From Candidatus Uhrbacteria bacterium (GTDB lineage: Bacteria > Patescibacteriota > Patescibacteriia > GWA2-47-26), in assembly GCA_016187515.1 (NCBI GenBank), contig JACPJN010000009.1, forward strand, positions 132,891 through 196,890: 64,000 nucleotides of DNA, read 5' to 3'. Made by a program: the position numbers and the translations under genes. Positions 3,524 through 50,978 of this stretch are shown one piece after another (position 1 is the first letter of the stretch; each line of letters opens with the position of its first letter). The notes under the pieces are model-generated. The model was not told the DNA's origin. It saw nothing but the letters and a program-made list of their open reading frames with translations, and did no database searches.

Positions 3524-5872
3524 TCACAAGCGCAGCCGACGCAACAGTTGGGCGTTAAAGGCCACGATAACCGTGGAAAGCGACATCAATATTGCGGCAA
3601 AGGCCGGCGCCAGAATAATGCCGAGTGGCAGAAACGCGCCCGCGGCCGCCGGAATCGCAAAGGCGTTATATCCGGTTGCCCAAATTAAATTTTCCACCAT
3701 TTTCCGGTAAGTCGCCCGCGCGAGTTTAATAATCCGCACAATATCGCGCGGGTCGCTTTTGATTAGCACAATGCCCGCGGATTCGATGGCCACATCAGTG
3801 CCCGCGCCTATCGCGATTCCCACATCCGCCGCGGTAAGCGCCGGCGCGTCATTAATGCCGTCCCCGACCATCGCCACCCGCATCCCGCGCTTTTGCAGCT
3901 CCTGAACTTTCTCCACTTTTTGCTCCGGCAACACTTGCGCAAAATATTCATCAATTCCAAGCTCCTTTGCCACCCACTCCGCTACCGGTTTTGCGTCGCC
4001 GGTTATCATTGCCACTTTCACTCCCATATCATGAAGCACGTGCACTGCCGCGCGCGACTCTTCGCGAATAATATCGGCTACTCCGAATGCCGCGACAGTT
4101 TTATCATCAGCAATGAGATATATCACAGTTTTACCTTGTGCCTGTAGTACAGTAATGTCTTTTGACAAAAGTTCCATACTTGGAACTATGGAACTTTTTT
4201 CTGGAGACGCGGAAAGTAAATTTTCTCCTCCCACCCGCACCATTTTACCATTTACAAAACCCTCTACTCCACGTCCTGGCAATGCTTTTACATCCGCCGC
4301 TTTCGGTATTGTCAAGCCGCGCTCTTGCGCGGCCTTAACAATCGCTTTGGCAATCGGATGCTCGGACTCGCGATCCACCGCCGCCGCCAGCGCCAACAAT
4401 TCATTCTGCGCGGACTGTGAACTGTGAACTGATGACTGTGAACTCACTAGTATATCAGTGACACCGTATTCGCCACGGGTTAATGTTCCGGTTTTATCAA
4501 AAAGCACTATGTCAATCTTTCGCGCCAACTCCAGCGCCAGTTTCTCGCGCACCAGCAGCCCACTGCGTGCCGAAAGCGTAGTGGAAATTGAAGCGACGAG
4601 CGGCACGGCCAATCCCAGCGCGTGCGGACAGGCAATGACGAGCACGGCCACCACACGGGTCAGCGCTACCGCGATTCCGGCATCAAGCGCTAACCATGCC
4701 ACGACTGTAACTGCGCCCACCGTAACCGCGATAATTGTCAACACCAGCGCGGCTTTGTCCGCCAGCGCTTGCACGCGGCTGCGCGAGGCCTGGGCCTGGG
4801 CCACGAGCCGCATAATACCCGCGAGCGCGGTTTGCTCGCCGACTTTGGCCACGCGCACTTTAAGCGCGCCTTCGCCATTGATTGTCCCGGCAATCACCGG
4901 ACTGCCCGGTTTTTTGTCAACCGGTTTTGACTCGCCGGTAATCATGGATTCATTCACGCTGGAAACACCCTCAACAATTTCTCCGTCCGCCGGCACCTTG
5001 GTACCCGGCCGCACAAGAACAATATCACCAACACGTAATTCTGAAACCGGTACGATCTCAATACCTTCATTCATAACCCCCCTATCCCCCCTTATCTTAA
5101 GGGGGGTATTTGTTGTGTCTCCCTCCCTTAAGGTAAGGGAGGGCGGGGGTGGGTTATGCATTGCAATCCGCTCCGCCGTATCCGGTAAAAGCTTTGCCAA
5201 CTCCCGCAGCGCGCCCGAAGCATGTCCCACTGCCGCCATTTCAATCCAATGGCCCAAAAGCATGATCGTAATCAGCGTGGCAATTTCCCAAAACAGCGGC
5301 TCGCCAATTGGCCAAAACACCGTGAGCACGCTATACGAATACGCCACCGTTATAGCCAGCGCGATAAGCGTCATCATCCCGGGCAAACGATGCTTCAGTT
5401 CCGCAATCGCGCCCCGGATAAACACCCAACCGCCGTAGAAAAAAATCATACTCGCCAACGCGAGCGTCAAATACATGTGTCCTGGAAATTCCGGAAAGTG
5501 CACGCGGAACAACTTCTGTACCACGTCAGCGTACGCCAAAACCGGCAAGGTCAGCGCCAAACACACCCAAAACCGTTGCTTGAACATATTCACACTATGC
5601 CCCGCATGTCCCGACGCTTCGGTCGGGATCCCGACTTTACGTCGGGACTTGTCCACCAATTTGTCATTTCGAGGGAGCGCGGCAACCGAGAAATCTCTAC
5701 CGCCTTGCATACCACGGTGTAGAGATTCCTCACTACGTTCGGAATGACGAATTGGTTGCGGCCGATGATGGCTACAATAATAATGCATCACCCCTTGCGC
5801 GTCCTTTTCCGCATACTCGGCCACCATCCCGCATAATTCACATTTTTGTCCTTTAGGAATTTCGTGTTTCAT
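3524..5872 (-). CDS. copB: Copper-translocating P1B-type ATPase, CopB-like (CPH motif, His-rich N-terminus)
   Basis: DKTGTLT phosphorylation motif; CPH in the TM6 segment [11 protein letters not shown]; [10 protein letters not shown] hinge; N-terminal CxxC (CELCGM). Carries three in-frame palindromic inserts. Confidence 0.9.
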
Positions 5873-7100
5873 AATCTCTTAAGAGTTTAGCCACTCCCAG
5901 CGCGGTTCCATCGTCTGTGATTTGCCGGCGCACGTTGACTCCCGATACCTTCGCTTGTATGGAAACCATGCGGACATCACGCGTAATACCGCCGTCAATC
6001 ACCAGCGTACGCGGACGAATTGGCAGCTTTTTTAAATATCCATCCACATCTTTGGCAATATACGTGAGCGCCCTATCCAATTTATTGACATCATGTAAGA
6101 CCTTGTCTATTGCGGACCCGCTTCCTTCAATTTTTGCCTCCAGCGCGAATTGTGGACGCCGCGCGCCGGGCATAAGGGTGGTAAAAAACGGCTGCCTCAA
6201 CACATACTTCGACCCTAGTGATTGCACCAAAAACGTTCCTGTGCCATAAGTGACTTTGGTAGTACCTGGACTAACCCCTACTCCATACATACTGGCTTGC
6301 TGATCGCCGCATACCGCACGCACCGGCAAACGTGCGCCAACCACCTCATGGCGCAAAACACCGAATTTTGACTGTGATGGGCGCACTTCCGGCAGTATCG
6401 CGCGCGGCACACCAAATATCTCGAGCAACTCATCATCCCACTTTAAAGTACGGATATTATACAAAAGCGTGCGCGAAGCATTAGTCCAGTCAGTCAAATG
6501 CGGCCGGCCTTCAAGCAGATTCCATAAGATCCAAGTGTCCACGGTGCCGAAAAATAGTTCACCACCCCTAACCCCTCCTCGGCGAGGAGGGGAAACGATT
6601 CGCTTTCCTCCCCTGCCCGAGGGTAGGATTAAGGAGGGGTGGGAGCGATTGCTAACCACATTCCTTAAAATCCACCCCACCTTTGTCGCGGAAAAATACG
6701 GATCAATAGCCAGTCCGGTTTTACCGCGCACCTCGTCGCTAAGAGACGGACGCCGTCTCTTAGCGACGGCACACTCTTTCGCGGTCCTTTTATCTTCCCA
6801 AACAATCGCGGGATAAATCGGTTTTCCGGTTTTGCGATTCCACACGATTGCGGTTTCTCGCTGATTGGTAAGACCGAAGGCGCGCAGTGATTTTAGCGGA
6901 ACTCGGCTTGCCCGCACTGCAGTGCGCAGCACTTGTTTGCTGACTGCCAGGAGCTCGGAGGGCGATTGCTCAACGAATCCCGGCTTTGGATGCGTTTTTC
7001 TAATACGCGCATACGCGCGTCCCACAATTTCAATACTCTGCGAAAAAACCAAGGCCTTAATTCCGGTTGTACCTACGTCAAGCACCAAATAATATCTCAT
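5853..7100 (-). CDS. FGGY-family carbohydrate kinase (glycerol kinase-like) with in-frame GC-rich insert
   Basis: N-terminal YYLVLDVGTTGIKALVF, then TNQRETAIVWN and GTVDTWILWNL, all typical of GlpK/FGGY. The insert encodes SGRGGKRIVSPPRRGGVRGG. Confidence 0.7.
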   Translation of the reverse strand: MRYYLVLDVGTTGIKALVFSQSIEIVGRAYARIRKTHPKPGFVEQSPSELLAVSKQVLRTAVRASRVPLKSLRAFGLTNQRETAIVWNRKTGKPIYPAIVWEDKRTAKECAVAKRRRPSLSDEVRGKTGLAIDPYFSATKVGWILRNVVSNRSHPSLILPSGRGGKRIVSPPRRGGVRGGELFFGTVDTWILWNLLEGRPHLTDWTNASRTLLYNIRTLKWDDELLEIFGVPRAILPEVRPSQSKFGVLRHEVVGARLPVRAVCGDQQASMYGVGVSPGTTKVTYGTGTFLVQSLGSKYVLRQPFFTTLMPGARRPQFALEAKIEGSGSAIDKVLHDVNKLDRALTYIAKDVDGYLKKLPIRPRTLVIDGGITRDVRMVSIQAKVSGVNVRRQITDDGTALGVAKLLRDYETRNS

Positions 7101-8200
7101 AGCGCAGTATCGGCAAAAAATTTCTTAATCTCCTTGCAGGGGTCGGCGCCGCGGTATAACACGCGACACACCAGATTAAGCAGCGGCGCTTTTACTTTTT
7201 TGCGGCGCGCCAAATCGAAAAAAACTTTCGTGGCGGCAACGCCTTCATGAGTTTGACTGCTTTTCTGCCATACAAATTTGCAATGCCCTTCTTTACAAAT
7301 ACGCTCGCCCAAGGCGCGATTGCGGCCATCGCCTAACCCCGTAACCACCAAATCCCCCACCCCGGCCAATCCGTGGACCGTAATCGCTTTACCGCCAAGC
7401 GCCACAACCACCTGTTCCATCTCGGCAACCGCCAGAGTAAACATAAACGCCTTCATATTCATCGGCAAACCAATTTCGTGATATTTCGTGTCCGACCATC
7501 GGTATCCTTTCGTGGTCTTTCGTGTATAACCATCGCACATCCCGAGCGCGATCGCATAAACATTTTTAAGCCCTCCGCATATACCCACCCCTTTCCAGTC
7601 CGCGGAAACCGCCACCTTAAATGTGGAGGAGGTAAAGACATCGCGCACTAATTCACGCGCTTTCTTGTCCTGACTTGCCGCGACTACCGCGGTCGGTACA
7701 CCGCGGACCAATTCCTTGGCAATGGACGGCCCGGAAATAGTAACCACCCTACGACGCAGCGCCGCGGGCAATTCCGATTGCACAACTTCGTGCATGGTAA
7801 GATTAGTCTTGGCTTCCAATCCCTTTACGACATGCGCAATTACCAACCTCCGCCCCTCACCCTCCCCTCTCCCACGGGGAGAGGGTGGCCGTAGGCCGGG
7901 TGAGGGAATTAGGCACTGTGCCAACTTCCGCACCGTCTGGCGCACATACGGCGACGCGCACGCCACGATCACTAGTGCGGCGTTTTCCACCGCCCGTTCC
8001 ATGCTCGCCTCCGGCACAATATTCTTGGATAATTTCACTCCTGGTAAAAATCGTTCATTCTTTCCAGTTCGTGCGATTACCTCGACAGTTCGTGATTCAT
8101 AATCCCAAAGCGCGGCGCGATGTCCGCGCAACGCTAAAATCTGCGCCAGCGCGGTTCCCATATTTCCGGCGCCTAAAACCGTGGTATTTATTTTTGCCAT
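7097..8200 (-). CDS. gpsA: NAD(P)H-dependent glycerol-3-phosphate dehydrogenase with in-frame palindromic insert
   Basis: Rossmann motif TVLGAGNMGTALAQIL and a GpsA-like C-terminal domain. Insert encodes SPGLRPPSPRGRGEGEGRR. Confidence 0.85.
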   Translation of the reverse strand: MAKINTTVLGAGNMGTALAQILALRGHRAALWDYESRTVEVIARTGKNERFLPGVKLSKNIVPEASMERAVENAALVIVACASPYVRQTVRKLAQCLIPSPGLRPPSPRGRGEGEGRRLVIAHVVKGLEAKTNLTMHEVVQSELPAALRRRVVTISGPSIAKELVRGVPTAVVAASQDKKARELVRDVFTSSTFKVAVSADWKGVGICGGLKNVYAIALGMCDGYTRKTTKGYRWSDTKYHEIGLPMNMKAFMFTLAVAEMEQVVVALGGKAITVHGLAGVGDLVVTGLGDGRNRALGERICKEGHCKFVWQKSSQTHEGVAATKVFFDLARRKKVKAPLLNLVCRVLYRGADPCKEIKKFFADTAL

Positions 8201-10061: not shown

Positions 10062-10062
10062 A

Positions 10063-10209
10063 ATTAGGAATTAGGTGAATTAGGTGAATTAGGTGAATTA
10101 GGTGAATTAGGTGAATTAGGTGAATTAGGTGAATTTGTCATTCCCCGCCCGTATCACAATCTCAATCAATCCAATTTTAGGAATTAGGTGAATTAGGTGA
10201 ATTAGAAAT
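10063..10209. repeat. Tandem 9-nt repeat (gaattaggt) x about 7, then a second block of about 2.5 units
   Basis: Direct read; lies immediately upstream of the csoR start. Confidence 0.9.
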
Positions 10210-10262
10210 TCTCAAATACCCCCCTCCCCTATTACCAATTCTATCACGCCGGTTATCCACAG

Positions 10263-13593: not shown

Positions 13594-14596
13594 GGCCTTG
13601 TACTGGTGATGCTCCGCCCACTACCACTTTAATGTGTTTCGGATCGTAAGTCAATCCCATACTGTCAAACCAAAACTTTAGCGGTACGCCAGTGGCATGC
13701 ATGTGCAAACGATTAAAGTTTGGTCCTTCCACATGGAGGAAACTTGAGCTTTTGCCATCATCATTGCCTCCCATACGATGCCCATACGGGGTAAGATCAA
13801 GTTCCTTGCCATTCTGAAGTACATGAAACTCTGCATGAATATGCGCTGACTGCAACAGCCCGATTTTTGCATCCGGATCCATGGTACACTCCATCATACC
13901 ACTTTCAATGCATTGATCAATGGCCATCCCGCACGCATCGCACGCTCCGTCGCCGTTTTTATCCATGAGTTCTTTGGCCTGGGCAATGTCGAAAAGGGTG
14001 AATTTCATCTGGCTCGTAACCCCCCTGTCCCCCCTTACCCTAAGTGGGGAATCGCTTTCGTCTCCTCCCCTTAAGATAAGGGGAGGTTGGGAGGGGTTAT
14101 GAGTCGCGAAAAACAGTCCCACCACCGCCACCACTCCCACCAACCCTCCCGCCACCTTCTTCCCCTGCTCCACAAAATCCACCACCCACCCGGTTTCCAC
14201 GCGTTTCACGATCAAATCTTTCAGATACCATCCAAGCACGCCCAGCACCAGCACTAATCCCACTGTTCGCGCGCCGGCAACCCACTCGCCGGCAAATGGC
14301 AATCCCGCCAGTAAAAGTCCGGCATTTCCAAACACGCCGCGTGTGGTAATGCAGCGCATCCTCATCCCCGCACGAATAAAAAGCAGCACACCAAATAATA
14401 CCACTGCCGCGATCCACAATGGCCACTGAAAACGATTTAAAAACAAAAGCGGCATGCCTTGGAGCGCAATGCCAAAAGTGGCTACGAGCGCGATAAGCGA
14501 AGTGCAGACATTATGACAAATCTGCCATGAACCTAAAATTGAGGCACAACCCGAGATTTTACTTCCGCGAGAGAACCAATTTGTTGAAATCTTCAT
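13547..14596 (-). CDS. Hypothetical membrane protein with in-frame palindromic insert (SPLRVRGDRGVT) and Cys-rich C-terminal domain
   Basis: Start trimmed to MKISTNWF at 14596; the track ORF extends upstream across a palindromic element and the trxB 3' end. Confidence 0.4.
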   Translation of the reverse strand: MKISTNWFSRGSKISGCASILGSWQICHNVCTSLIALVATFGIALQGMPLLFLNRFQWPLWIAAVVLFGVLLFIRAGMRMRCITTRGVFGNAGLLLAGLPFAGEWVAGARTVGLVLVLGVLGWYLKDLIVKRVETGWVVDFVEQGKKVAGGLVGVVAVVGLFFATHNPSQPPLILRGGDESDSPLRVRGDRGVTSQMKFTLFDIAQAKELMDKNGDGACDACGMAIDQCIESGMMECTMDPDAKIGLLQSAHIHAEFHVLQNGKELDLTPYGHRMGGNDDGKSSSFLHVEGPNFNRLHMHATGVPLKFWFDSMGLTYDPKHIKVVVGGASPVQGLDYVFKDGDIIEVKL

Positions 14597-14666
14597 AGCA
14601 ATATAGCGACTTGCGCAAAAAGTTCCATACTTGTGCTCCCAAGGCGCATCAGCCCACGGCTGAGAA

Positions 14667-15692
14667 CTATGGAACTTTTTTCTTATTTCTTGGGGGTATA
14701 GATTTAGGCGCGATAATCGGCAACGCATGCACCTCGCAGGCCATTCCACCGTGAACTCCCAGATCTTGATACGCCGAGGTGGCCGCCATCGCGCCTTGCG
14801 CGGCCGCAATAATATCCTGACGGAATGGCCCGGCGCCGTCGGTAATATCTCCTGCCGCGAATATGCCATCCACATTGGTTTTCATAAATTTATCCACATG
14901 GATATATCCTTTCTCGTCTAATTCCACCCCAAGTTTTTTTGCCATCTCATTGTTTGGCAACGCACCGATCTGCACGAATAAACCGCCTGCCTTGAGAACA
15001 TCCGACTCTTTATACGGCTTAGAAAGCCGCACACCTTCAAATTTGTCCGTGCCTAAAATTTCTTTTATCGCGGTGTTGTACAAAATTTCCGCCTTTCCGG
15101 TCTTTACGAGATTGGTCTCAAACCGATCCCAATTCACCGGCTCTGCGGTAATTTTGCCACCACGCACAATGAAATAAATCTTTGTCACGTATTCACCTGC
15201 CAGATTTGCGCCTTTCACGGAAGAATCGCCGCCGCCAACAATAATAATCTCTTTGCCTTTGTAAAGCGGCGCATCACAAGTCGTACAATACGAAATTCCG
15301 CGGCCGGTCAGTTCTTTTTCCTTGGGTAATCCCAGCCGCCGATGCCGCGCGCCCAGCGCGAAACAAATCGTCCGCGATAAAAGATGCGTGCCGTCCGTAA
15401 GTAGGAGATCAAAACAATGCTTTTGTCGAAGTACATCAATGACTTCTCCATCGCGCAGCTCCACACCGGTGGAGACCGCGTGATCTTCCATCTTTTGAAT
15501 AAGCTCATAGCCATCAATGCTCTTGAACCCCGGATAATTTTCAACTGTGGCCGCAATCGCGGTCTCCCCTCCGGGATCCTTGCCGCGCACCACCACGGTT
15601 TTCATCTTATATCGCTCAGCATAAATCCCGGCCGAAAGTCCGGCCGCCCCGCCGCCGATGATTGCGAAATCATACAATTTATCATCCGCCAT
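14667..15692 (-). CDS. trxB: Thioredoxin-disulfide reductase
   Basis: FAD motif DFAIIGGGAAGLSAG; redox CTTCD; NADPH motif IIIVGGGDS. Confidence 0.9.
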   Translation of the reverse strand: MADDKLYDFAIIGGGAAGLSAGIYAERYKMKTVVVRGKDPGGETAIAATVENYPGFKSIDGYELIQKMEDHAVSTGVELRDGEVIDVLRQKHCFDLLLTDGTHLLSRTICFALGARHRRLGLPKEKELTGRGISYCTTCDAPLYKGKEIIIVGGGDSSVKGANLAGEYVTKIYFIVRGGKITAEPVNWDRFETNLVKTGKAEILYNTAIKEILGTDKFEGVRLSKPYKESDVLKAGGLFVQIGALPNNEMAKKLGVELDEKGYIHVDKFMKTNVDGIFAAGDITDGAGPFRQDIIAAAQGAMAATSAYQDLGVHGGMACEVHALPIIAPKSIPPRNKKKVP

Positions 15693-17812: not shown

Positions 17813-18388
17813 TTAATTGCAACCGCAAGTTGACCCGTTTTGTGTTCCGCAGCTGCGGCAAGTGCCGGCCGGCTTGGCATTAGAAGTTTTTCCGCCGTCA
17901 ACCAGATGATTATGCTCCTGATGCGCCTGGCATGAGCATGAACATGCCGTGCAAGTTGTTTTTTTATCTTTCTGATCCATATTTTTGAATTGATAAACCG
18001 CATTGGATGTTTTAATTTTCGACCTTTTGAATTGTCTTTTGTTGTACGCAATCGCGACAATTATGATAATCGCGCCCGGCCCCCAAATCTGCCACGCTCC
18101 CCACGTGCTTAAGAATACATAACGACCAACATAGAGAAGCGCGACACCAATGACCAATAATATAAGCGGTCTCGGATTTTTGTGCGCTCGATAATCAAAA
18201 AGAAAACCAACGGCTCCGATAGCAATTAAACCAAATGCAAGCCACCGCCAGACAGGAATTAAAGCGCCTAATCCCAAATACGTAAGGAGCGAAGCCGAAC
18301 CAATCCAACAAAGCGGACAAACGCCTACTGCTCCAGCGCCTAAAACCGGCGCCAATCTTGTGAGTGCCTTTTCTATTGTTTTGCTCAT
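17813..18388 (-). CDS. Membrane protein with CPLC motif in TM1 and Cys-rich C-terminal tail (putative metal transport/binding)
   Basis: TM helices; tail CTACSCSCQAH...CRSCGTQNGSTCGCN; next to an ArsR regulator. Confidence 0.45.
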   Translation of the reverse strand: MSKTIEKALTRLAPVLGAGAVGVCPLCWIGSASLLTYLGLGALIPVWRWLAFGLIAIGAVGFLFDYRAHKNPRPLILLVIGVALLYVGRYVFLSTWGAWQIWGPGAIIIIVAIAYNKRQFKRSKIKTSNAVYQFKNMDQKDKKTTCTACSCSCQAHQEHNHLVDGGKTSNAKPAGTCRSCGTQNGSTCGCN

Positions 18389-18394
18389 ACTGAA

Positions 18395-18706
18395 TTACAC
18401 GCACGCTTTACATCGCTTGCAAAATTTTGAAATATGGCGATCCATGAGCTTTAGAAGTGGACCCACGGTCTCGCGATTAAGGAAATAGTGTCGCTCCCTG
18501 CCGCGCTGGACTACCCTCACAAATCCGCACAGTTCCAACCGACGCAGATGATGAGAGGCAAGACTTTGCTCCAATTTCAGTTTTTTAGCGATCCGGGTCG
18601 CGCTGATTGCCTTCTCCCGATTTAGAAGGTGCACAATATCCCAGCGCGCTTGATTACCAAGGGTCTCAAAAAATATCTGATGCGGCGCATGCGGAATGTG
18701 GGCCAT
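18395..18706 (-). CDS. ArsR/SmtB-family metalloregulator
   Basis: Winged-HTH core NQARWDIVHLL...ISATRIAKKLKLEQSLASHHLRRL and C-terminal Cys CKRCKAC. Confidence 0.75.
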   Translation of the reverse strand: MAHIPHAPHQIFFETLGNQARWDIVHLLNREKAISATRIAKKLKLEQSLASHHLRRLELCGFVRVVQRGRERHYFLNRETVGPLLKLMDRHISKFCKRCKACV

Positions 18707-18768: not shown

Positions 18769-19632
18769 CTACAGCCTTGGTTGCGGAAGAAATTGATTGA
18801 GATTCGCCTGAAAATAACGGTCCACTCCCAGCCACAAGGCGATTGCCCAGATCACGAGAATAATTCCGCCAACTTGTCGAATACGCGCCGAGGCGCGCGC
18901 AAATCCCTTGATGCGCAGCGTAAGCGCCCGGCCGCCGTAGCCGATTAAGAGCATGGGCACAGCCGCGCCAAGGCCGTAGGTGAAAAATAGCAAGCCGCTT
19001 TGGAATACATTCTGTGTATTTGCGGCAAAGGTGAGAATCGCGCCAAGAATCGGACCGGCGCACGGGGTCCACACCACGCCAAGGGTTGACCCAATTCCAA
19101 ACCCGCCCCAGAAGCCGTTGCCCCCTCCCCTCGCCCCTCCCACAGGTGGAGGGGAAATGTGGGATTGTTTTCCTCCCCTGATGGGAGGAAAATTTTCAAT
19201 TGTTTCCTCCCCCCTTGTGGGGGAGGATGAAGGAGGGGGGTTGCAACACGATCCACGCGCACTGATTTTCCTCCACACAAATGTCCCCCTCACCACCATC
19301 CACTCCCACAGCGCCGGCACGGCCAACGCCACCCCGAATAAAAACAAGAGCACAATAGAGGCCACGCGCAGCGTGCCTTTGGAAATTCCCAGTACATCCA
19401 GAAAAATCGCAAACGCCGTGCCAAAAATGGTAAACGTCACCACGAGTCCAGCCACAATTCCAAGCGGCCGCCACTTACTTGTGCCCAAAGAACCGCCCAA
19501 AATCGCCGGAAGCACCGGCAAAAGGCAAGGCGCGGCAACGGTCAGCACCCCGGCGGCAAAAGAAAGAGGGAGAAGAGAAAACACAAAATGACAATTTCTA
19601 ATTGACCTAATTGCTCTAATTATTCTAAACAA
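18769..19632 (-). CDS. CcdA/DsbD-family transmembrane thiol-disulfide transporter carrying a ~46-aa in-frame GC-rich insert
   Basis: AAPCLLPVLP and VWTPCAGPILG match CcdA Cys motifs. Insert encodes CCNPPPSSSPTRGEE...GGARGGGNGFWGG. Confidence 0.65.
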   Translation of the reverse strand: MFRIIRAIRSIRNCHFVFSLLPLSFAAGVLTVAAPCLLPVLPAILGGSLGTSKWRPLGIVAGLVVTFTIFGTAFAIFLDVLGISKGTLRVASIVLLFLFGVALAVPALWEWMVVRGTFVWRKISARGSCCNPPPSSSPTRGEETIENFPPIRGGKQSHISPPPVGGARGGGNGFWGGFGIGSTLGVVWTPCAGPILGAILTFAANTQNVFQSGLLFFTYGLGAAVPMLLIGYGGRALTLRIKGFARASARIRQVGGIILVIWAIALWLGVDRYFQANLNQFLPQPRL

Positions 19633-19750
19633 ATCTCAATTCCCAATAACCAATTTTGGGATTTTGCGCCTCAGGCGCATCCGCCTTGGGCGTGAGGTGC
19701 TTGGACATTTCTTAGGTCAATTAGGATAATTAGGTTAATTAGGTTAATTT
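19601..19750. repeat. AT-rich degenerate repeats (ctaattg / aattagg units, inverted arrangement)
   Basis: Direct read; promoter region of the ccdA-like gene. Confidence 0.7.
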
Positions 19751-23761: not shown

Positions 23762-24580
23762 TCAAGTGATGTCGTGCTGATGCTCTCCCCAAGAGCAAAA
23801 TCCGCACTGACTATGATGCGCCGGCGACTGATCGCTCTGCAGTAGTCGAGCGGCGTTTTCGAATAATTGCCGAGCGCGCTTTATACTGGTTTCCATCCGT
23901 TTGGGCGTTATTTCAAACTGCACGACTCCATTCTCGCGCACTTCAATCGGGTGATAATACACTAACCATCCCACTCCTTTGGTTTTATAACCATTCTCGT
24001 GCAAAAGCCACTCGTAAATATCTAACTGGTGCTGATAAAATCCGGAAGAATCCTCTTTTGGCGCGTACCCGCGGGTTTTGTAATCAAGCGGTACGTAATA
24101 GCGTGCCAAATTCCTTTTACTGCTCCCCTCTCCCCCGTGTGGGAGAGGGCTAGGGTGAGGGGATTCAGTAACCACCAAACAATCATCCAAAAGTCCGATG
24201 AGTTTCGTGTTGAGTTTTTTATCAAAATAGCGCAGACCACCAGTGCGCGCGCGCCAGCCATTCAGTAATTTCTGGTCAGCGAGCAGCTTCCCCTCCACTT
24301 TTCCGCGGATTTCCGGCGGTAACCCTTCCTTTGTTCCGCGAAACTTATCAAAGTAAGTTTTTATAACACCATCCATTCCTCCCGGAAGTGAAGGGAAAAT
24401 GGTTTTTGGACGATGCACGCCCATTTTAAGCTGTAACCAAAAACACCGCGGACATTCTTTAAAAAGCGAGAGCGTGGAGGCGGAAAGCTGGATAAATCGT
24501 CCAACCTCACGGTCATTGCGAGGAGCTTTCATTGCTCCGCCAAGCGGTAACCTTCCATTCGTTCCCATAGGGTTATTCAT
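23762..24580 (-). CDS. PD-(D/E)XK nuclease superfamily protein with Cys cluster (Cas4/RecB-like fold), carries in-frame palindromic insert
   Basis: N-terminal CPRCFW; LLDDCLVV...VPLDYK fits D...ExK; C-terminal CGFCSW. Insert encodes SPHPSPLPHGGEGSS. Confidence 0.5.
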   Translation of the reverse strand: MNNPMGTNGRLPLGGAMKAPRNDREVGRFIQLSASTLSLFKECPRCFWLQLKMGVHRPKTIFPSLPGGMDGVIKTYFDKFRGTKEGLPPEIRGKVEGKLLADQKLLNGWRARTGGLRYFDKKLNTKLIGLLDDCLVVTESPHPSPLPHGGEGSSKRNLARYYVPLDYKTRGYAPKEDSSGFYQHQLDIYEWLLHENGYKTKGVGWLVYYHPIEVRENGVVQFEITPKRMETSIKRARQLFENAARLLQSDQSPAHHSQCGFCSWGEHQHDIT

Positions 24581-24900: not shown

Positions 24901-26103
24901 CTATTGCGTAGGTATATACTGCCATGGATTAAGCCACTGGTCAAGTTCTGTTTTTGATTTCACATATCCACGAAGATCCAGACGCGTACCTTTATGAATT
25001 CCGAAGTGCAGGTGTTTGCGCTCGCCATCGGTCTCGCTCGTGCCACCCGCACCCAACACACCAATTATGTCACCGGGCGCAACATATTCACCTACGCCCT
25101 CTTTCTCCCCCTCCTGGAAAGGGCTCTCCCCTTTTTTCTCCCCCTCTCCCCTTGTGGGAGAGGGCGGGGGTGAGGGGTCAATTTTCAAATGCCCATACAC
25201 CACCGTAACCGCTTGATCACCGAGCACGCACTCCTGCACTACTACTCCCCCATAGCCATCCGCAGTGCGTTTTTCACGGATCGTCCCACCACAGAACGCG
25301 CGCACCTCCACGTCCCGATCCTTTTCTTCATCCGACACTTCAAAATCCACCGCAGTATGGTAACCGGAAAAACGTTCGGGCTGCACCGGAGAATTTTCTG
25401 GAGCAACTTTCAGTCCAAACGGCTTTTTGGTAACGCGCGCGGCGGCACGATCGATCGGCGCACTGAAACTCACGCGATCATTGTGGAATTGAATGCTTTG
25501 GAAAAATTTTTCAAACTCCTCTTTGGGGAGATCTGGATTGCGTCCGAACACGTAAAATACGCCCGGACTGTTCTTTGCGAAGCGCACATCCGTAACCTCA
25601 TGAGTTTCATTTCGCCAGGACGGCTGATATGGAAAATCCGCTACCCCTTTTTTCTTACGAATCGTGTAGCGCACGGCAGCGTGTCCCTGCGCTTCCAACT
25701 GTGCGCGCTCCAAAATATCCACGGTACGCAGGGTAAGAAAATCGCTCGCCTCAAAATAACGGATAAAAATCTGGGAAAGCTCCCGCGCGGGCATTGCCGC
25801 CTGCACCGGTCCATAGATATTCAGCGCTTCAATCTCCGGCACATATTCCGCCTGCCATGTACTCGGAAGCTCGGCGGAAAATCGAAACACCGGATTAAAC
25901 TCCGAAAAATCTACTCGAATTAAAGCAGACGATTGTTCTCGTGTCGCTTCTTCACTCTCCGGCAATTGTCCCAAATTCTCACGGCCGTGAGAATTTGGGA
26001 CAATTAGAACTGGGGTTGTAGTGGTTTTCCCTTGCTCTTGTGGCTGCCCCGCACAGCCAGACCCGAGCAAAATAATGACTATAAAAAGTAAAATAAATCT
26101 CAT
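24901..26103 (-). CDS. M23-family metallopeptidase lipoprotein with in-frame GC-rich insert
   Basis: Lipobox GSGCAG; M23 HxH (HLHFGIH). Insert encodes SPPPSPTRGEGEKKGESPFQEGEKEGVGE. Confidence 0.8.
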   Translation of the reverse strand: MRFILLFIVIILLGSGCAGQPQEQGKTTTTPVLIVPNSHGRENLGQLPESEEATREQSSALIRVDFSEFNPVFRFSAELPSTWQAEYVPEIEALNIYGPVQAAMPARELSQIFIRYFEASDFLTLRTVDILERAQLEAQGHAAVRYTIRKKKGVADFPYQPSWRNETHEVTDVRFAKNSPGVFYVFGRNPDLPKEEFEKFFQSIQFHNDRVSFSAPIDRAAARVTKKPFGLKVAPENSPVQPERFSGYHTAVDFEVSDEEKDRDVEVRAFCGGTIREKRTADGYGGVVVQECVLGDQAVTVVYGHLKIDPSPPPSPTRGEGEKKGESPFQEGEKEGVGEYVAPGDIIGVLGAGGTSETDGERKHLHFGIHKGTRLDLRGYVKSKTELDQWLNPWQYIPTQ

Positions 26104-28610: not shown

Positions 28611-28745
28611 GAGCGACAACCACTCCTTCTCCCACCCCCTCTAACTCCCCCTCGGGCAGGGGGAGAAACCTCCTTGAAAAGGAGGGGGGACTTTTTAATT
28701 TCCCCTCCTCTTTGAGGAGGGGTTAGGGGTGGTGAGAGAGTTCTT
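28611..28745. repeat. GC-rich mosaic palindromic element (ccaccccctctaactccccctcgggcagggggagaaacctcc; cccctcctctttgaggagggg)
   Basis: Direct read; a related copy sits at 29228-29290. Confidence 0.75.
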
Positions 28746-29094
28746 TGATAATCCCGGCGATTACCTCGCCAACATTCTCACATACATCATTGTCGGTAAA
28801 TCGAAGCACGCGAATTCCTTGGGCTTCAATGAACTTCTGCCGTTGTGCATCCCGCCGCTTCGCTCCCTCCTGATAATGACTATCCCCATCCAGCTCGACG
28901 ACCAATTTTACCCTGGGACAATAAAAATCGACCACATGAGGGCCGATTCCTTGCTGCCGACGAAATTTATACCCTTCCACATTACTCCCTCGCAGATAGT
29001 ACCAGAGAATTTTCTCACTCCGTGTCATTCGACTACGAAGTTTTTGACGCGTGGATTTTTGTGCGTTCGGGTTAAACAATTTTACCATAACCAC
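28723..29094 (-). CDS. DUF559 (Vsr-like) endonuclease-domain protein
   Basis: GYKFRRQQGIGPHVVDFYCPRVKLVVELDGDSH...RDAQRQKFIEAQGIRVLRF matches the DUF559 pattern. Confidence 0.75.
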   Translation of the reverse strand: MVMVKLFNPNAQKSTRQKLRSRMTRSEKILWYYLRGSNVEGYKFRRQQGIGPHVVDFYCPRVKLVVELDGDSHYQEGAKRRDAQRQKFIEAQGIRVLRFTDNDVCENVGEVIAGIIKELSHHP

Positions 29095-29330
29095 CCCTTA
29101 ATCCCCTCCTTGGAAAGGAGGGGAAATCTTAACCACCCCTTAATCCCCTCCTTGGAAAGGAGGGGAAATCTTAACCACCCCTTAATCCCCTCCTTGGAAA
29201 GGAGGGGAAATCTTAACCGCCCCTTCTCCCACCCCCTCTAACTCCCCCTCGCCTGCCCGCCTCTGGAGGGGGCAGGGGGAGAAACCTCCTTGCCTGTCCG
29301 CCTCTGGCGGGGAAAGGAGGGGAAATCAAA
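29095..29330. repeat. Three tandem copies of a 42-bp hairpin unit (cttaaccaccccttaatcccctccttggaaaggaggggaaat), then a GC-rich palindromic segment
   Basis: Direct read. Confidence 0.85.
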
Positions 29331-34400: not shown

Positions 34401-34530
34401 CTAGTCGGTATTTTATTATACCCCATCCTCACCCCATTTGACAAATCCACCTCATTTTTCTATAATATACCCGCTTTGGGGACAACCCCAGCACAACCAA
34501 GCATGCCTGAAAAAGGCAAGGAGGATTTCA

Positions 34531-35187: not shown

Positions 35188-35293
35188 ACCAATAGGCCAA
35201 GCGCACCTTCCAACAACGGCGCGCAAGCAGAACCTGCTTGCGCGCCTTTTCACTTACTGGCCCGAAATTTCGCTTGACAATCCTATGCTAATC

Positions 35294-36619: not shown

Positions 36620-36625
36620 ATAACT

Positions 36626-36686: not shown

Positions 36687-36687
36687 A

Positions 36688-49373: not shown

Positions 49374-50978
49374 TTATTGAGTTATTACCGGCAGTTCCTC
49401 CGCGGCCACCTCCTCTGCCGTCGTCTCTTCAAGCTGCTCCGCCGCTTCGGTCTGCGCCGCGGATTCTGGCGCGGGCGCTGGCTCCACTACTGGCGCGGGT
49501 TCCACCGGTACCGGCGTTTCCACTGCTGGCCCGGCTTCCTCCCCCTCTCCCTCGGCGGGAGAGGGCGGGGGTGAGGGGGCGCTGACACTATCCCCCTCTC
49601 CCCCGGCGGGAGAGGGTTGGGGTGAGGGGGCACTTGCCTCGCTTGATTTACTTGCTTCACTTGATTCACTGCTGCCACGCGGGGTCCCGCACGCGCCGGG
49701 CCGCACCACTACTCCGCCATTGCGCAGCGACACGCATGAAGGCGAACCGGTTACCTCATCATGCAGTGTAATCCCGGTCGGCCGCTCCGGACTTCCCACC
49801 GTCAAATCCCGCACTTGCAGCTGGCCATCTTGCGAAATACTCCAAACCCCGGAAATTCCGGCAATGCGTCCGACCTCAAGGATCGCGTAGCCATTCATGT
49901 TCAGATTATGCTCCGCCACCGTTATCAAACCGTCGGATCCTTGACTGGCGGTCAACTCATCCGGGCCATGCCAGTAGAAATTATTGACCAACATCATAAT
50001 CTGGCCATTTCCGCTCTCCCAATTTTCAAGCGCGATACCGATAACCTTCCCTGAACGCGCGGTCTTCATCGCATGACCCGCCAATGACGAGCTTACCAAA
50101 TAATCACCAACGCCAATCGCGCCGTTTTCATCGGTAACTTTGACCGGCACGCGCCCGGAAAGAGCGACGGGCAAAGGATGACGGCCCTGTTTTTGTATAT
50201 CACCGCCAATGGTCTGGACCGGTGATCCGGAAATCACGCCGAATATCTTCGCGCTATATGATTCTTGGGACTTCCCGAGTATGGCAATGGTCTCTCGTCC
50301 ATTTTCCTCGGCAATAAGACCGGTAAACGGATCAACTCTCGTGGCCTCATACGTAAAATAGGCATCGGTCAGCGCCACCACGTCCCCCACCTCTACATTT
50401 TGTTCGGTTTCATACCATTCCGCAAGGTCGCCGGCGCCATTATTGCAAGCCACGAGCGCTTCGGTCGTATCGGAAGCCGCGTCAAGATCAGATCCGGAAT
50501 GACATACCCCATTGGTGGTCGCGGTTGAATTAAAATTCACCGACGTTATTCCGGCCGGTGTTACGGTAAACTTGCTGTTATTCACGTTAATCGCGTTATC
50601 CCAACCGCTGCTGATAAACAGACCGGATGAACTCACCGTACCGGTTCCGGCTTCCGTCATACTGCCAACACTAATACCGGTGGCGATGAGATTATTGGTG
50701 GTGGAAGTGGCCGTGATATTGGCGATATTTAGAACAGTATTCGTGCTGTTGTTGGTGGTGGAGGCAAAAGTGGCATTGAGGTTTAAGAGGTTAGAACCAG
50801 TAGCGCCTTCCGCCGTAATCAGGGTAATGTTGAGCGCGTCCACATTGGCAGTGGCGGTGGTGTCGCCCGAGCCGATCGTGACCAGATCAGCTGTCGGGGT
50901 CGCATCGCCATCCAGATTAATGGTTTGTCCGTCAATAATGGCCTCACGCCTCCCGAGGCCAAAAACAGATCGCCCCAC
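49374..50978 (-). CDS. C-terminal part of a giant repetitive Thr/Ser/Gly-rich surface protein (frame-disrupted); contains two in-frame GC-rich hairpin inserts
   Basis: Repeats LNITLITAEGATGSNLLNLNATFASTT; inserts encode SAPSPQPSPAGGEGDS and SAPSPPPSPAEGEGEE. Confidence 0.45.
   Translation of the reverse strand: MGRSVFGLGRREAIIDGQTINLDGDATPTADLVTIGSGDTTATANVDALNITLITAEGATGSNLLNLNATFASTTNNSTNTVLNIANITATSTTNNLIATGISVGSMTEAGTGTVSSSGLFISSGWDNAINVNNSKFTVTPAGITSVNFNSTATTNGVCHSGSDLDAASDTTEALVACNNGAGDLAEWYETEQNVEVGDVVALTDAYFTYEATRVDPFTGLIAEENGRETIAILGKSQESYSAKIFGVISGSPVQTIGGDIQKQGRHPLPVALSGRVPVKVTDENGAIGVGDYLVSSSLAGHAMKTARSGKVIGIALENWESGNGQIMMLVNNFYWHGPDELTASQGSDGLITVAEHNLNMNGYAILEVGRIAGISGVWSISQDGQLQVRDLTVGSPERPTGITLHDEVTGSPSCVSLRNGGVVVRPGACGTPRGSSESSEASKSSEASAPSPQPSPAGGEGDSVSAPSPPPSPAEGEGEEAGPAVETPVPVEPAPVVEPAPAPESAAQTEAAEQLEETTAEEVAAEELPVITQ

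What the first reader, a model, noticed from the sequence alone, without database searches (positions are those of the whole stretch)
19118..19255. Largest Family A insertion: about 46 extra residues inside the CcdA/DsbD-like transporter between its two Cys motifs
The segment carries three consecutive hairpins (ccctcccacaggtggagggg, cctcccctgatgggagg, cctccccccttgtgggggagg). It encodes CCNPPPSSSPTRGEETIENFPPIRGGKQSHISPPPVGGARGGGNGFWGG and sits between the AAPCLLP and TPCAGP motifs of a polytopic membrane protein. Either a TM-loop tolerates a 46-aa low-complexity insert, or the gene is inactivated while staying in frame.
Basis: seen in the sequence. Interest (0 to 1): 0.55.

Follow-up and report, generated by a model that had tools for sequence, protein, structure and literature searches.

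The report
Triplex-motif DNA repeats inside ccdA
A membrane electron-transporter gene (ccdA) of a Candidatus Uhrbacteria bacterium carries, in frame, a cluster of small G/C-rich repeats of the same type as the E. coli "BoxC" triplex-forming repeats; they are read through as a floppy ~40-residue loop between the protein's two halves, and such repeats sit in many genes of these tiny-genome bacteria, although in E. coli they lie only between genes.

Summary
ccdA (18769-19584, minus strand, 271 aa) has three perfect hairpins at 19134-19227, translated in frame. This adds about 39-41 residues (not 46) between the AAPCLLP and TPCAGP motifs.

The insert is not a CcdA loop. It is a cluster of dispersed DNA repeats. 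Two of the hairpins carry a mirror-repeat G-rich third strand 3 nt away. That is the architecture of BoxC/PIT/TMECO intrastrand-triplex motifs (Holder 2015). Across the window and relatives, 38 of 43 such hairpins have this third strand, against 1.5% of decoys. Four window copies match the published TMECO pattern exactly. One is 87% identical to E. coli intergenic copies.

In the window, 12 of 18 units lie in frame inside ORFs, including a P-type ATPase, an FGGY kinase, a GPD and an M23 peptidase. Orthologues lack some of these units.

The ccdA insert sits in the (inferred) cytoplasmic TM3-TM4 linker and is predicted to be disordered. The flanks show dN/dS of 0.04-0.18, so the gene is functional. 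Orthologous ccdA genes carry different repeat families at the same site, making it a recurrent landing and instability spot.

How the repeats spread is unknown. This is a new variant of known kinds: BoxC-type repeats behaving like Rickettsia RPEs.

The parts
18769..19584 (-). ccdA gene (271 aa from GTG at 19584). Cys20 codon at 19525-19527, Cys175 codon at 19060-19062.
   Evidence: ORF list. Pfam DsbD_TM 8.6e-9 and DsbD_2 5.4e-7. PDB 5vkv CcdA 1.4e-11. A 100% identical NCBI protein is named CcdA of 'Candidatus Uhrbacteria bacterium'. Foldseek top hit is 5vkv.
19124..19239 (-). In-frame repeat cluster, the insert. It is translated as roughly residues 112/113-154 (…CCNPPPSSSPTRGEETIENFPPIRGGKQSHISPPPVGGARGGG…), a net gain of about 39-41 aa in the TM3-TM4 linker.
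   Evidence: Alignment A1 with 21 homologues. AF2 gives coil with pLDDT 46-61 for residues 113-156. Fold z = -4.1.
19205..19239 (+). Triplex motif 1, with its G-rich strand on the + strand. Pyrimidine arm TCCTCCCCC 19205-19213; loop CTTGT; purine arm GGGGGAGGA 19219-19227; loop TGA; mirror third strand AGGAGGGGG 19231-19239. Read in the gene as PPPSSSPTRGEE.
   Evidence: Third-strand test, 0 mismatches. The hairpin is orthologous to those in the P0002 and P0003 ccdA genes.
19168..19192 (.). Central plain hairpin TTTTCCTCCC-CTGAT-GGGAGGAAAA (10-bp stem) with no third strand. Read as NFPPIRGGK. It is absent from the closest orthologues.
19124..19154 (-). Triplex motif 3, with its G-rich strand on the - strand. 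Pyrimidine arm CCCCTCC 19154..19148; loop ACCTGTG; purine arm GGAGGGG 19140..19134; loop CGA; mirror third strand GGGGAGG 19130..19124. Read as SPPPVGGARGG.
   Evidence: Third-strand test, 0 mismatches. It shares ATTTCCCCTCC with the intergenic 42-nt units at 29088-29225.
5069..5167 (-). Family member in the P-type ATPase gene: an inverted pair of TTA-loop triplex motifs, read as [28 protein letters not shown]. It is absent from the L003 orthologue.
6555..6650 (-). Family member in the FGGY kinase gene: a 28-aa insert absent from the L003 orthologue, which is 79% identical.
7835..7915 (-). Family member in the glycerol-3-phosphate dehydrogenase gene. It closely resembles the element in the aldehyde dehydrogenase gene of genome L001.
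14018..14110 (-). Family member in a gene of unknown function. It has two hairpins here and one in the L003 orthologue.
24126..24161 (+). Exact match to the published TMECO pattern, inside a PD-(D/E)XK nuclease gene.
25142..25176 (+). Exact match to the TMECO pattern, inside an M23 peptidase gene. 25136-25182 is 87% identical to intergenic E. coli copies.
49543..49628 (+). Two exact TMECO-pattern matches 51 nt apart, inside a 534-aa ORF of unknown function.
28645..28722 (.). Intergenic cluster of three family hairpins between tRNA-Gln and a DUF559 gene.
29088..29225 (.). Intergenic tandem array, 3 x 42 nt, of a family unit: hairpin plus third strand AGGGGTGGTT.

Best explanation
The segment is a cluster of small dispersed DNA repeats of the BoxC/PIT/TMECO 'intrastrand triplex motif' type that has landed in frame in ccdA.

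Anatomy. There are two oppositely oriented three-part motifs, each made of a pyrimidine arm, a complementary purine arm and a mirror-repeat purine third strand. They bracket a third, plain hairpin.

Why it is tolerated.
- The arms are made only of pyrimidines or only of purines, so they cannot contain stop codons in any frame.
- Only copies whose length is a multiple of three survive selection.
- The ribosome therefore reads straight through the cluster as a Pro/Ser...Gly/Arg/Glu-rich stretch of about 40 residues.
- That stretch lies in the cytoplasmic linker joining helices TM3 and TM4, that is, between the two three-helix halves of CcdA. Here a disordered loop does no harm, and the transporter stays functional.

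What the peptide is. The conserved object is the DNA motif, so the peptide is a by-product.

Why the site varies. The same linker has been hit or remodelled repeatedly in related lineages. It is the permissive site of a small membrane protein, and these motifs destabilise their surroundings.

Shown here: the anatomy, the family identity, dispersal of the family, presence/absence among orthologues, purifying selection on the gene, and the predicted disorder of the insert.

Inferred: translation of the insert, its cytoplasmic side, actual triplex formation in DNA, and the way the copies spread (unknown; either a transposase acting in trans or structure-driven template switching or gene conversion).
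For: Insertion. Ordinary CcdAs of 230-233 aa lack the segment, and Uhrbacteria-type orthologues range from 234 to 271 aa at this one place.

Family identity.
- 16 of 18 window hairpins, and 38 of 43 counting relatives, have a mirror third strand 1-6 nt after the purine arm on one strand or the other. Decoy positions give 1.45%.
- The third strand co-varies with the hairpin: GGGAGAGGG with GGGTGAGGG, GAGGAGGGG with GGGGTGGTG, TAAGGGAGGG with GGGTGGGTTA, GGGGGAGGA with AGGAGGGGG, GGAGGGG with GGGGAGG.
- There are 4 exact matches to the published pattern CCCTCNCCC-N3-6-GGGNGAGGG-N3-GGGNGAGGG, with 0.00 expected (pattern from PMC4666352).
- Window 25136-25182 matches 5013 of 5426 E. coli genomes at 80-95% identity (87% in the best-listed records, e.g. 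MG1655), with no annotated feature under the matches in the records listed.

Dispersal and turnover.
- A 40-nt unit is identical between the ccdA and aldehyde dehydrogenase genes of genome L001.
- The FGGY and ATPase inserts are absent from L003 orthologues.
- L001 has 13 units in 20.8 kb, 12 of them inside called genes.
- ccdA orthologues carry other repeat families at the same site. One of these has an intergenic copy in the same genome.

The peptide is a by-product. The three ccdA hairpins are read in three different frames. The peptide has no match among 1.84 billion protein representatives.

The gene is functional. Flank dN/dS is 0.04-0.18 with pS 0.5-0.7, and is lowest for the window versus P0002. 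Both Cys-Pro motifs are intact.

Tolerated position. In the AF2 model residues 113-156 are coil with pLDDT 46-61, between well-predicted helices. Counting K and R in the sequence gives 12-16 in loops 1, 3 and 5 against 4 elsewhere, which fits N-out/C-out topology.

A DNA-level feature rather than an RNA-level one.
- Purine-motif triplexes are reported not to form in RNA (PMC4666352).
- No G.U pairs occur among the imperfect stems.
- Motifs face both strands equally, 8 and 8.

Instability. Holder et al. link these motifs to local rearrangement. Two of the three SNPs between near-identical contigs L001 and L002 fall inside motifs.
Against: - There is no expression, proteomic or biochemical evidence that the insert is translated, or that a triplex forms.
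- The three ccdA units do not match the literal TMECO consensus. They share only its architecture. The central hairpin has no third strand.
- No full-length second copy of the three-unit cluster exists in the window or the fetched loci. Part of it may therefore have arisen locally rather than by insertion.
- No transposase was seen among the Pfam families listed for 42 other window ORFs (only the top 25 of 45 families were shown, and the window is a fraction of the genome).
- Target-site duplications are equivocal.
- Orthologous hairpins stay perfect, and all their differences are paired changes, at saturated synonymous divergence. This also fits selection on structure.
Confidence: 0.8

Rival explanations
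1. The hairpins are kept because they act in the mRNA. For example, they could pause translation between the two halves of CcdA so that TM1-3 insert first, or control mRNA stability. On this view the insert is a functional RNA structure embedded in the ORF.
For: The stems are perfect. All 5 differing stem positions between orthologous hairpins are compensated pairs, with no uncompensated change, although flanking synonymous sites are 50-70% diverged. The whole insert folds into an outer stem enclosing three hairpins, z = -4.1. PPP tracts could add ribosome stalling (inference).
Against: - The best-conserved extra feature is a mirror-repeat purine strand, which has no role in an RNA hairpin. 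Purine-motif triplexes are reported not to form in RNA.
- No G.U wobble occurs among imperfect stems.
- Units face either strand equally, and also lie between genes.
- Copies within one genome resemble each other more than orthologous copies do: the same ACCGG loop in two L001 genes, and the same ACAAG loop in the window's ccdA and M23 genes. This points to family dynamics, not in-place compensation.
- Orthologues carry unrelated repeats at the site.
Confidence: 0.08
2. Much of the cluster (the central hairpin and perhaps motif 3) was generated in place. An ancestral two-motif element would have grown by replication slippage, or by template switching on hairpin or triplex DNA, rather than by arrival of separate pre-formed units. 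The 'compensatory' changes would then be quasi-palindrome correction.
For: - The first ~46 nt (host flank, C-rich strand and hairpin 1) are homologous in the window, P0002 and P0003. The middle differs in length and content: 13-27 nt in the orthologues against about 63 nt here.
- There is no second copy of the three-unit cluster.
- Other perfect palindromes occur in coding DNA where the orthologue merely differs in sequence, e.g. the 16-bp stem at 6734-6768.
- Holder et al. report that such motifs provoke local deletions and rearrangements.
Against: Motif 3 shares 11 nt plus its arm type with the intergenic 42-nt units. Elsewhere, whole units are clearly copied between unrelated genes. This rival concerns only the route of growth and is compatible with the main explanation.
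Confidence: 0.25
3. The insert is a selected protein feature: a cytoplasmic Pro/Gly-rich linker or docking loop, for example for thioredoxin, that Uhrbacteria CcdAs need.
For: Nearly all Uhrbacteria-type orthologues have a lengthened linker. A Cys-Cys pair just before the insert is conserved in most of them. A thioredoxin gene lies directly upstream.
Against: - The linker sequences are unrelated between close orthologues: SPTRGEE type, PSLTLREGD type, LRISNSQIRKFGS type and others.
- The same DNA motif is read in three frames.
- The same DNA occurs in unrelated genes and between genes.
- The peptide has no homologue.
- Some orthologues manage with 234-240 aa.
Confidence: 0.05
4. The gene is a pseudogene that happens to remain open, or the insert is an assembly artefact.
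For: A structured, G/C-rich ~120-nt insert inside a small polytopic membrane protein could plausibly disrupt it. Repeats are also known to break assemblies.
Against: - dN/dS is 0.039-0.18 with no excess on this lineage.
- All invariant CcdA residues are kept.
- The AF2 core is confident.
- Independent assemblies from ENA, JGI, NCBI and Logan show inserts at the same site.
Confidence: 0.03

Closest known systems
BoxC / PIT (potential intrastrand triplex) / TMECO repeats of E. coli and other Proteobacteria and Cyanobacteria (Bachellier 1990s; Hoyne & Maher 2000; Holder et al. 2015, PMC4666352)
   Same: - The three-part architecture is the same: pyrimidine arm, 3-6-nt loop, complementary purine arm, ~3-nt loop, mirror purine arm (class II purine motif).
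- Four window copies fit the published pattern exactly, and one is 87% identical over 47 nt to E. coli copies.
- Inverted pairs occur, as in 5 E. coli K-12 loci.
- There is no strand bias.
- Both are associated with local sequence instability.
   Different: - In E. coli MG1655 the motif is 'always located intergenically'. Here 12 of 18 units in the window, and 12 of 13 in L001, lie in frame inside protein-coding genes.
- The host is a CPR bacterium.
- Density is far higher, up to 1 unit per 1.6 kb, against 23 per 4.6 Mb in K-12.
- Several stem subfamilies exist, including TTA-loop ones.
- The ccdA units themselves are variants (other stem sequences, 7-nt stems in one), and one unit lacks the third strand.
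Rickettsia palindromic elements (RPE; Ogata et al. 2000, as summarised in PMC10969869 and PMC3733652)
   Same: Both are small palindromic repeats inserted in frame into many unrelated, apparently functional genes. They are translated as extra peptide segments at permissive surface positions. Only stop-free frames survive.
   Different: RPEs are ~100-150 bp, Rickettsia-specific sequences with a CGTC tag and a conserved peptide. They are mostly old and shared between species. The units here are ~35-90 nt and G/C-rich triplex motifs. They are unrelated to RPEs in sequence, are read in several frames, and differ between close relatives.
REP/BIME elements and intragenic REPs (Di Nocera et al. 2013, PMC3733652)
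   Same: Both are short G/C-rich hairpins occurring singly, as inverted dimers or in clusters. Some are found inside genes. Different REPs sit at about the same site of recB in two Xanthomonas species, which resembles the ccdA hotspot.
   Different: There is no GTAG or CGTC terminal tag, no RAYT transposase was seen, and the mirror third strand is not a REP feature.
CcdA / DsbD-beta thiol-disulfide electron transporters (PDB 5vkv, 2n4x)
   Same: The host protein has both Pro-Cys motifs, six helices and the same fold.
   Different: There are about 40 extra disordered residues in the TM3-TM4 linker, which is ~20 residues long in Thermus CcdA.

Membership tests
BoxC/PIT/TMECO intrastrand triplex motif repeats | Order on one strand: pyrimidine arm, loop, complementary purine arm, short loop, mirror-repeat purine (reverse-Hoogsteen) arm (class II purine motif) | tested here: met
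   ccdA motif 1 (19205-19239, +) and motif 3 (19154-19124, -) both have 0 mismatches. 16/18 window units and 38/43 overall meet the feature, against 1.45% of decoys. The central ccdA hairpin (19168-19192) does not.
BoxC/PIT/TMECO intrastrand triplex motif repeats | Published consensus 5'-CCCTCNCCC N3-6 GGGNGAGGG N3 GGGNGAGGG-3' | tested here: inconclusive
   Met exactly by 4 other window copies, with 0.00 expected, and by 7 copies in L001 with a 1-3-nt second loop. The three ccdA units have other stem sequences (TCCTCCCCC, CCCCTCC), so they are variants of the family, not consensus members.
BoxC/PIT/TMECO intrastrand triplex motif repeats | Sequence similarity to E. coli copies | tested here: met
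   Window 25136-25182 is 87% identical over 47 nt to MG1655 and to 5013/5426 E. coli genomes. I did not test the ccdA units themselves.
BoxC/PIT/TMECO intrastrand triplex motif repeats | Intergenic location (as described for E. coli) | tested here: not met
   12 of 18 window units lie in frame inside ORFs. In E. coli the motif is 'always located intergenically'.
BoxC/PIT/TMECO intrastrand triplex motif repeats | Forms a stable intrastrand DNA triplex (CD, NMR, DMS footprint) | not testable with these tools
   This needs biophysics on oligonucleotides. Only the sequence logic (G.G-C and A/T.A-T triads) was checked.
Rickettsia palindromic elements (RPE) | Membership of one of the RPE sequence families (about 100-150 bp, CGTC-tagged, conserved encoded peptide) | tested here: not met
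   The units are 35-90 nt, have no CGTC tag in the sequences read, and give peptides that differ with reading frame. The resemblance is in behaviour only.
Rickettsia palindromic elements (RPE) | In-frame insertion into many unrelated, conserved genes | tested here: met
   ATPase, FGGY kinase, GPD, CcdA, PD-(D/E)XK nuclease and M23 peptidase in the window. LigA, GatA, aldehyde dehydrogenase and UvrD in L001.
REP elements mobilised by RAYT | GTAG (or CGTC) tetranucleotide at one end; associated RAYT/IS200-type tyrosine transposase | tested here: inconclusive
   No such tag appears in the unit alignments. No Y1 transposase is among the Pfam families listed for window ORFs. However, only 64 kb was examined, and only 25 of 45 families were displayed.
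MITE (transposase-derived) | Terminal inverted repeats plus target-site duplications | tested here: inconclusive
   The apparent terminal inverted repeats are the third strand and its complement in an inverted motif pair. Direct repeats at the ends are inconsistent: GCAAC flanks the ccdA insert, but GCAAY is not enriched near units, 7.0 against 6.2 per kb.
CcdA (DsbD_TM) transporter | Two Pro-Cys motifs in TM1 and TM4, and the six-helix fold | tested here: met
   P19-C20 and P174-C175 are invariant in A1. Pfam, PDB and Foldseek matches.

The most novel reading that the evidence does not exclude
BoxC-type triplex motifs may be an active, structure-defined class of selfish or self-renewing DNA in CPR bacteria. 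On this reading, their three-strand design is maintained at the DNA level. This would explain the perfect stems, the co-varying third strand and the paired changes at saturated divergence. The motifs would routinely write new disordered Pro/Gly-rich loops into housekeeping proteins. They would spread without a dedicated transposase, by triplex- or hairpin-induced template switching or gene conversion. Permissive sites such as the CcdA inter-repeat linker would then be re-hit or remodelled in every lineage.
Probability: 0.2. Interest if true: 0.8.

Novelty: new variant of a known kind. Interest (0 to 1): 0.6.

Why it matters
BoxC/PIT/TMECO repeats have been known since the 1990s, but no function or mode of spread has been agreed. 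They have been treated as intergenic curiosities.

Here, sequence-level relatives sit in frame inside conserved genes of a Candidate Phyla Radiation bacterium. Their density far exceeds that of the classic Rickettsia RPE case, and they show presence/absence differences between close relatives.

This gives three things:
- a natural experiment for asking how these motifs move and what keeps them intact, using orthologous empty and filled sites, frame constraints and co-variation of three strands;
- a concrete source of protein-length variation and new disordered loops in streamlined genomes;
- a practical warning for annotation. The motifs create spurious ORFs and a false tRNA call, break domain matches and inflate 'low-complexity' regions.

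For CcdA specifically, it marks the TM3-TM4 linker as a freely expandable joint between the two structural halves.

Tried and rejected
- Comparison with the proposed paralogue at 11140-11928: there is no significant similarity, so I dropped it in favour of orthologues.
- Searching the insert peptide in the 5.8-billion-protein index found no candidates. A concatenated PSLTLREGD-type peptide gave 2 candidates, neither significant. An exhaustive phmmer of the insert found no match at E <= 0.001.
- Rfam: only 5 tRNAs in the window and nothing at the insert.
- blastn of the whole insert against the window and 21 loci found only partial unit matches and no second full copy.
- A GCAAY target-site or target-site-duplication idea came from GCAAC flanking the insert (19244..19240 and 19121..19117) and similar junctions in orthologues. 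I rejected it as a general rule because the motif is not enriched near units, 7.0 against 6.2 per kb.
- A wobble-pair test for RNA-level selection found no G.U among the few imperfect stems. The sample is small, so this is only suggestive.
- I compared the near-identical contigs L001 and L002 for insertion polymorphism. The 24-nt 'indel' is a scaffold gap of Ns. Only 3 SNPs remain, 2 of them in motifs.
- Transposase hunt by Pfam on 59 window ORFs: none among the families shown. This is not conclusive.
- Genome contigs and metagenome-contig scans returned only 2 and 11 loci, which limited the orthologue sampling.
- A 2026 bioRxiv preprint that mentions REPs and in-frame hairpins could not be opened.
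Full report
**1. What is at the coordinates**

The + strand between 19118 and 19255 carries three perfect hairpins:
- CCCCTCC-CACAGGT-GGAGGGG at 19134-19154
- TTTTCCTCCC-CTGAT-GGGAGGAAAA at 19168-19192
- TCCTCCCCC-CTTGT-GGGGGAGGA at 19205-19227

They lie inside a minus-strand ORF (18769-19632 in the ORF list). The likely start is the GTG at 19584, which gives 271 aa beginning MFSLLPLSFAAGVLTVAAPC.

The protein is a CcdA:
- Pfam DsbD_TM and DsbD_2 both hit above their cut-offs.
- Thermus CcdA (PDB 5vkv) aligns to residues 5-87 and 159-254. That leaves 71 query residues opposite 20 of the Thermus protein.
- An identical protein is deposited at NCBI as CcdA of 'Candidatus Uhrbacteria bacterium'.

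The structure is not a chance feature. The 151-nt stretch folds at -75.1 kcal/mol against -57.9 +/- 4.2 for dinucleotide shuffles, z = -4.1. The window has 67 perfect hairpins with stems of 7 bp or more against 26.6 +/- 5.8 in shuffles. Of these, 21 begin with the pyrimidine arm against 1.7 expected, and none begins with the purine arm.

**2. It is an insertion, it is tolerated, and the gene works**

In an alignment with 21 homologues, ordinary CcdAs of 230-233 aa have nothing opposite about 39-41 residues of this protein. The figure of 46 is slightly high because the quoted string includes the host residues GFWGG.

The closest relatives (50-83% identity, 234-269 aa) differ from each other in length and sequence at exactly this place and almost nowhere else.

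The AlphaFold model built on that alignment has confident helices within residues 4-112 and 157-265, with block pLDDT of 72-90. Residues 113-156 have no secondary structure and pLDDT of 46-61. Foldseek's best PDB match for the model is 5vkv.

Counting Lys and Arg in the sequence gives 12-16 in loops 1, 3 and 5 and 4 elsewhere. This fits the N-out/C-out topology known for CcdA and DsbD-beta (my own knowledge of the family). It places the TM3-TM4 linker, and therefore the insert, in the cytoplasm, between the two three-helix halves.

Codon alignments with eight orthologues give dN/dS of 0.04-0.18 outside the linker. Synonymous sites are nearly saturated (pS 0.5-0.7). The lowest ratio (0.039) is for the window's own gene against P0002. 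Both Pro-Cys motifs and all other invariant residues are intact.

The 'inactivated but in frame' reading is therefore very unlikely. The suggested comparison with the ORF at 11140-11928 is not useful: that protein is only a remote relative (BLASTP E = 0.098).

**3. The insert is made of dispersed repeats, not of protein sequence**

The same kind of hairpin occurs 18 times in the window. Twelve are in frame inside ORFs:
- a P-type ATPase (two)
- an FGGY kinase
- a glycerol-3-phosphate dehydrogenase
- a protein of unknown function
- CcdA (three)
- a PD-(D/E)XK nuclease
- an M23 peptidase
- a 534-aa ORF (two)

The other six lie between genes, at 28645-28722 and in a 3 x 42-nt tandem array at 29088-29225.

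The three ccdA hairpins are read in three different frames, as SSPTRGEE, FPPIRGG and SPPPVGGA. This shows that the nucleotide motif, not a peptide, is the repeated object.

The insert peptide has no match in an exhaustive search of 1.84 billion protein representatives.

Orthologue comparisons give filled and empty sites. The 28-aa FGGY insert and the ATPase insert are absent from the syntenic genome L003, whose flanks are 79% and 68% identical. Another gene has two hairpins here and one there.

In the related genome L001 (the P0002 lineage), 13 units occur in 20.8 kb. Twelve lie inside called genes: LigA, GatA, a TPP enzyme, an aldehyde dehydrogenase, CcdA, a hypothetical protein and UvrD. A 40-nt unit is identical between the ccdA and aldehyde dehydrogenase genes of that genome.

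**4. What the repeat is**

A text search for the arm sequences led to Holder et al. 2015 (PMC4666352). That paper describes the E. coli BoxC/PIT/'TMECO' element. Its pattern is 5'-CCCTCNCCC N3-6 GGGNGAGGG N3 GGGNGAGGG-3', a class II purine-motif intrastrand triplex. The pyrimidine arm pairs with the first purine arm. The second purine arm is a mirror repeat that lies on the first as a third strand.

I tested this directly:
- Four window copies match the pattern exactly, with 0.00 expected from shuffles. Seven copies in L001 match with a slightly shorter second loop.
- More generally, 16 of 18 window hairpins, and 38 of 43 when relatives are included, have a mirror third strand within 1-6 nt of the purine arm on one strand or the other, with at most one mismatch. 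In that strand G faces G, and A or T faces A. The rate at decoy positions is 1.45%.
- The third strand changes with the hairpin across subfamilies: GGGAGAGGG with GGGTGAGGG, GAGGAGGGG with GGGGTGGTG, TAAGGGAGGG with GGGTGGGTTA, and so on.
- Window 25136-25182 is 87% identical over its whole length to intergenic sites in E. coli, with matches in 5013 of 5426 genomes.

What had looked like terminal inverted repeats of a MITE are third strands and their complements in inverted motif pairs. Holder et al. report the same arrangement at five E. coli K-12 loci.

In ccdA, hairpin 1 with AGGAGGGGG (19231-19239) forms a motif on the + strand. Hairpin 3 with GGGGAGG (19130..19124) forms one on the - strand. 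The central hairpin has no third strand. The insert is thus an inverted motif pair with an extra hairpin in the middle. Its stem sequences are variants of the published consensus, not exact matches to it.

**5. The ccdA linker as a hotspot**

I obtained DNA of eight orthologues. It shows that the same site holds different repeats:
- The window, P0002 and P0003 share the first unit, and each has a further triplex-motif hairpin downstream.
- P0004 and P0005 carry an inverted pair of the TTA-loop subfamily (…[13 protein letters not shown]…PLRVRG…). The same element sits in the window's ATPase gene and in its gene of unknown function.
- P0006 and P0012 carry an A/T-rich element that has a near-identical intergenic copy 10 kb away in L003.
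- P0007 (DNA) and P0008 (protein sequence only) carry GTCAT…ATGAC-type palindromic elements. A relative of these lies in the window's ATPase 5' region.

Insert type does not follow the gene tree. P0006 is much closer to P0004 (pN 0.07) than to P0012 (0.24), yet it shares its insert with P0012.

Either the site is hit independently again and again, or its contents are exchanged. Both are plausible, for two reasons. The linker is the one permissive place in a small polytopic protein. These motifs are also reported to destabilise their neighbourhood. Di Nocera et al. noted a similar same-site recurrence of different REPs in Xanthomonas recB.

**6. How the copies are kept intact**

Orthologous hairpins remain perfect. 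Every stem difference I could score is a paired change:
- one pair between the window and P0002/P0003
- two pairs between P0004 and P0005
- two pairs between the window and L003 in the gene of unknown function

There are no unpaired changes, although synonymous sites around them are saturated.

This could mean selection on structure. However, several observations point to DNA-level family dynamics instead, such as copying, conversion or quasi-palindrome correction:
- The third-strand co-variation is a DNA-triplex feature, not an RNA feature.
- There are no G.U pairs among imperfect stems.
- Motifs face both strands equally.
- Loops are shared between copies within a genome rather than between orthologous copies.

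I cannot decide between these mechanisms. No transposase was seen in the window, which is weak evidence. Target-site duplications are inconsistent, and a GCAAY target idea failed an enrichment test.

**7. Why the inserts survive in ORFs**

Arms made only of pyrimidines or only of purines cannot contain TAA, TAG or TGA in any frame on either strand. This follows directly from the sequence. Stops can arise only in loops and junctions.

The ccdA insert is open in three of the six frames, including the gene's. The TTA-loop subfamily contains TAA in some frames and is found in a single frame in all coding copies whose frame I checked. Selection then removes copies whose length is not a multiple of three.

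This behaviour is the one described for Rickettsia palindromic elements, but the element type, host and density are all different.

**8. Verdict**

The segment is an in-frame cluster of BoxC/TMECO-type triplex-motif repeats. It is translated as a disordered cytoplasmic linker of a functional CcdA, at a site that related lineages have filled with other repeats.

Relative to what is known, this is a new variant. The repeat type is known, but only as intergenic in Proteobacteria and Cyanobacteria. The in-frame behaviour is known from Rickettsia RPEs and a few REPs. The combination seen here was not found in the literature I could search. That combination is triplex motifs colonising many conserved genes of a CPR bacterium, with turnover between close relatives.

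Confidence is about 0.8 in the main explanation. The way the repeats spread, and the reason their three strands stay matched, remain open.

Noticed in passing
window 29111-29193 (within 29088-29225): ARAGORN calls a tRNA-Gly(tcc) here, but Rfam does not. The site is the 3 x 42-nt tandem array of triplex-motif units, so the tRNA is almost certainly a false positive caused by the repeat's cloverleaf-like fold. The stop-free repeats also create a spurious 170-aa ORF at 28729-29241(+).
   Followed up: partly
window 19585-19749 and 10059-10212: The trx-ccdA intergenic region is a ~160-nt inverted repeat whose arms are TAATTAG-type 9-nt tandem repeats (fold -50 kcal/mol). The same GAATTAGGT repeat forms a longer array at 10059-10212. 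A 7-nt TTAGAGT array lies at 36611-36700.
   Followed up: partly
window 6734-6768; 25964-26005; 35218-35246: These are long perfect palindromes of mixed composition (stems of 16, 19 and 13 bp); the first two lie inside coding sequence (FGGY kinase, M23 peptidase ORF), and I did not check the context of the third (it falls within ORF 34528-35253 of the list). At 6734-6768 the L003 orthologue has an unrelated sequence of nearly the same length. This suggests that coding DNA was replaced or converted into a palindrome.
   Followed up: partly
window 4167-4199, 14648-14680, 26401-26433: This is a 33-nt A/T-rich palindromic repeat family (AAAAGTTCCATACTTGGAACTATGGAACTTTTT). Two copies lie inside ORFs, in the ATPase HAD domain region and in Sua5/YrdC.
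   Followed up: no
window about 5655-5750 (-): The N-terminal extension of the P-type ATPase ORF contains a ~90-nt element with GTCATTCCGAACG…CTCGAAATGAC ends, read as …[10 protein letters not shown]…ALPRNDK…. It is of the same type as the insert in the ccdA linker of orthologue P0007. The L003 orthologue starts after this region, so the extension may not be coding.
   Followed up: partly
window 19240-19251 (-) and orthologues: A Cys-Cys pair (…ACC/SCC…) immediately before the insert is conserved in most Uhrbacteria-type CcdAs but is absent from ordinary CcdAs. It could be a functional cytoplasmic motif or a relic of the first insertion.
   Followed up: no
window 17813-18706 (-): A MerC-like membrane protein and an ArsR-family regulator sit between ccdA and the DUF3179 gene here. 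In the syntenic genome L003, ccdA is directly followed by DUF3179. This looks like a small metal-resistance cassette gained at this point.
   Followed up: no
L001 8414 and 11374 versus L002: Two contigs of the same population are 99.98% identical over 16 kb and differ by only 3 SNPs. Two of the three fall inside triplex-motif units, which make up about 3% of the DNA: one in a purine arm and one in a third strand. This fits elevated mutability of the motifs, but sequencing error in G-runs is not excluded.
   Followed up: partly
window 25136-25182 versus E. coli (L022 401-446): A 47-nt stretch inside a CPR peptidase gene is 87% identical to a BoxC copy lying between an ISEc19 transposase gene and yagE in E. 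coli K-12. Whether this reflects common descent, horizontal spread or convergence on a triplex-forming sequence is open.
   Followed up: partly
window 50754-50943 and 51257-51446: A 190-nt direct repeat (92% identity), followed by an 88-nt one (78% identity), spans the junction of ORFs 49374-50978, 50819-51346 and 51435-53198. It may be an internal protein repeat or a mis-called gene boundary.
   Followed up: no
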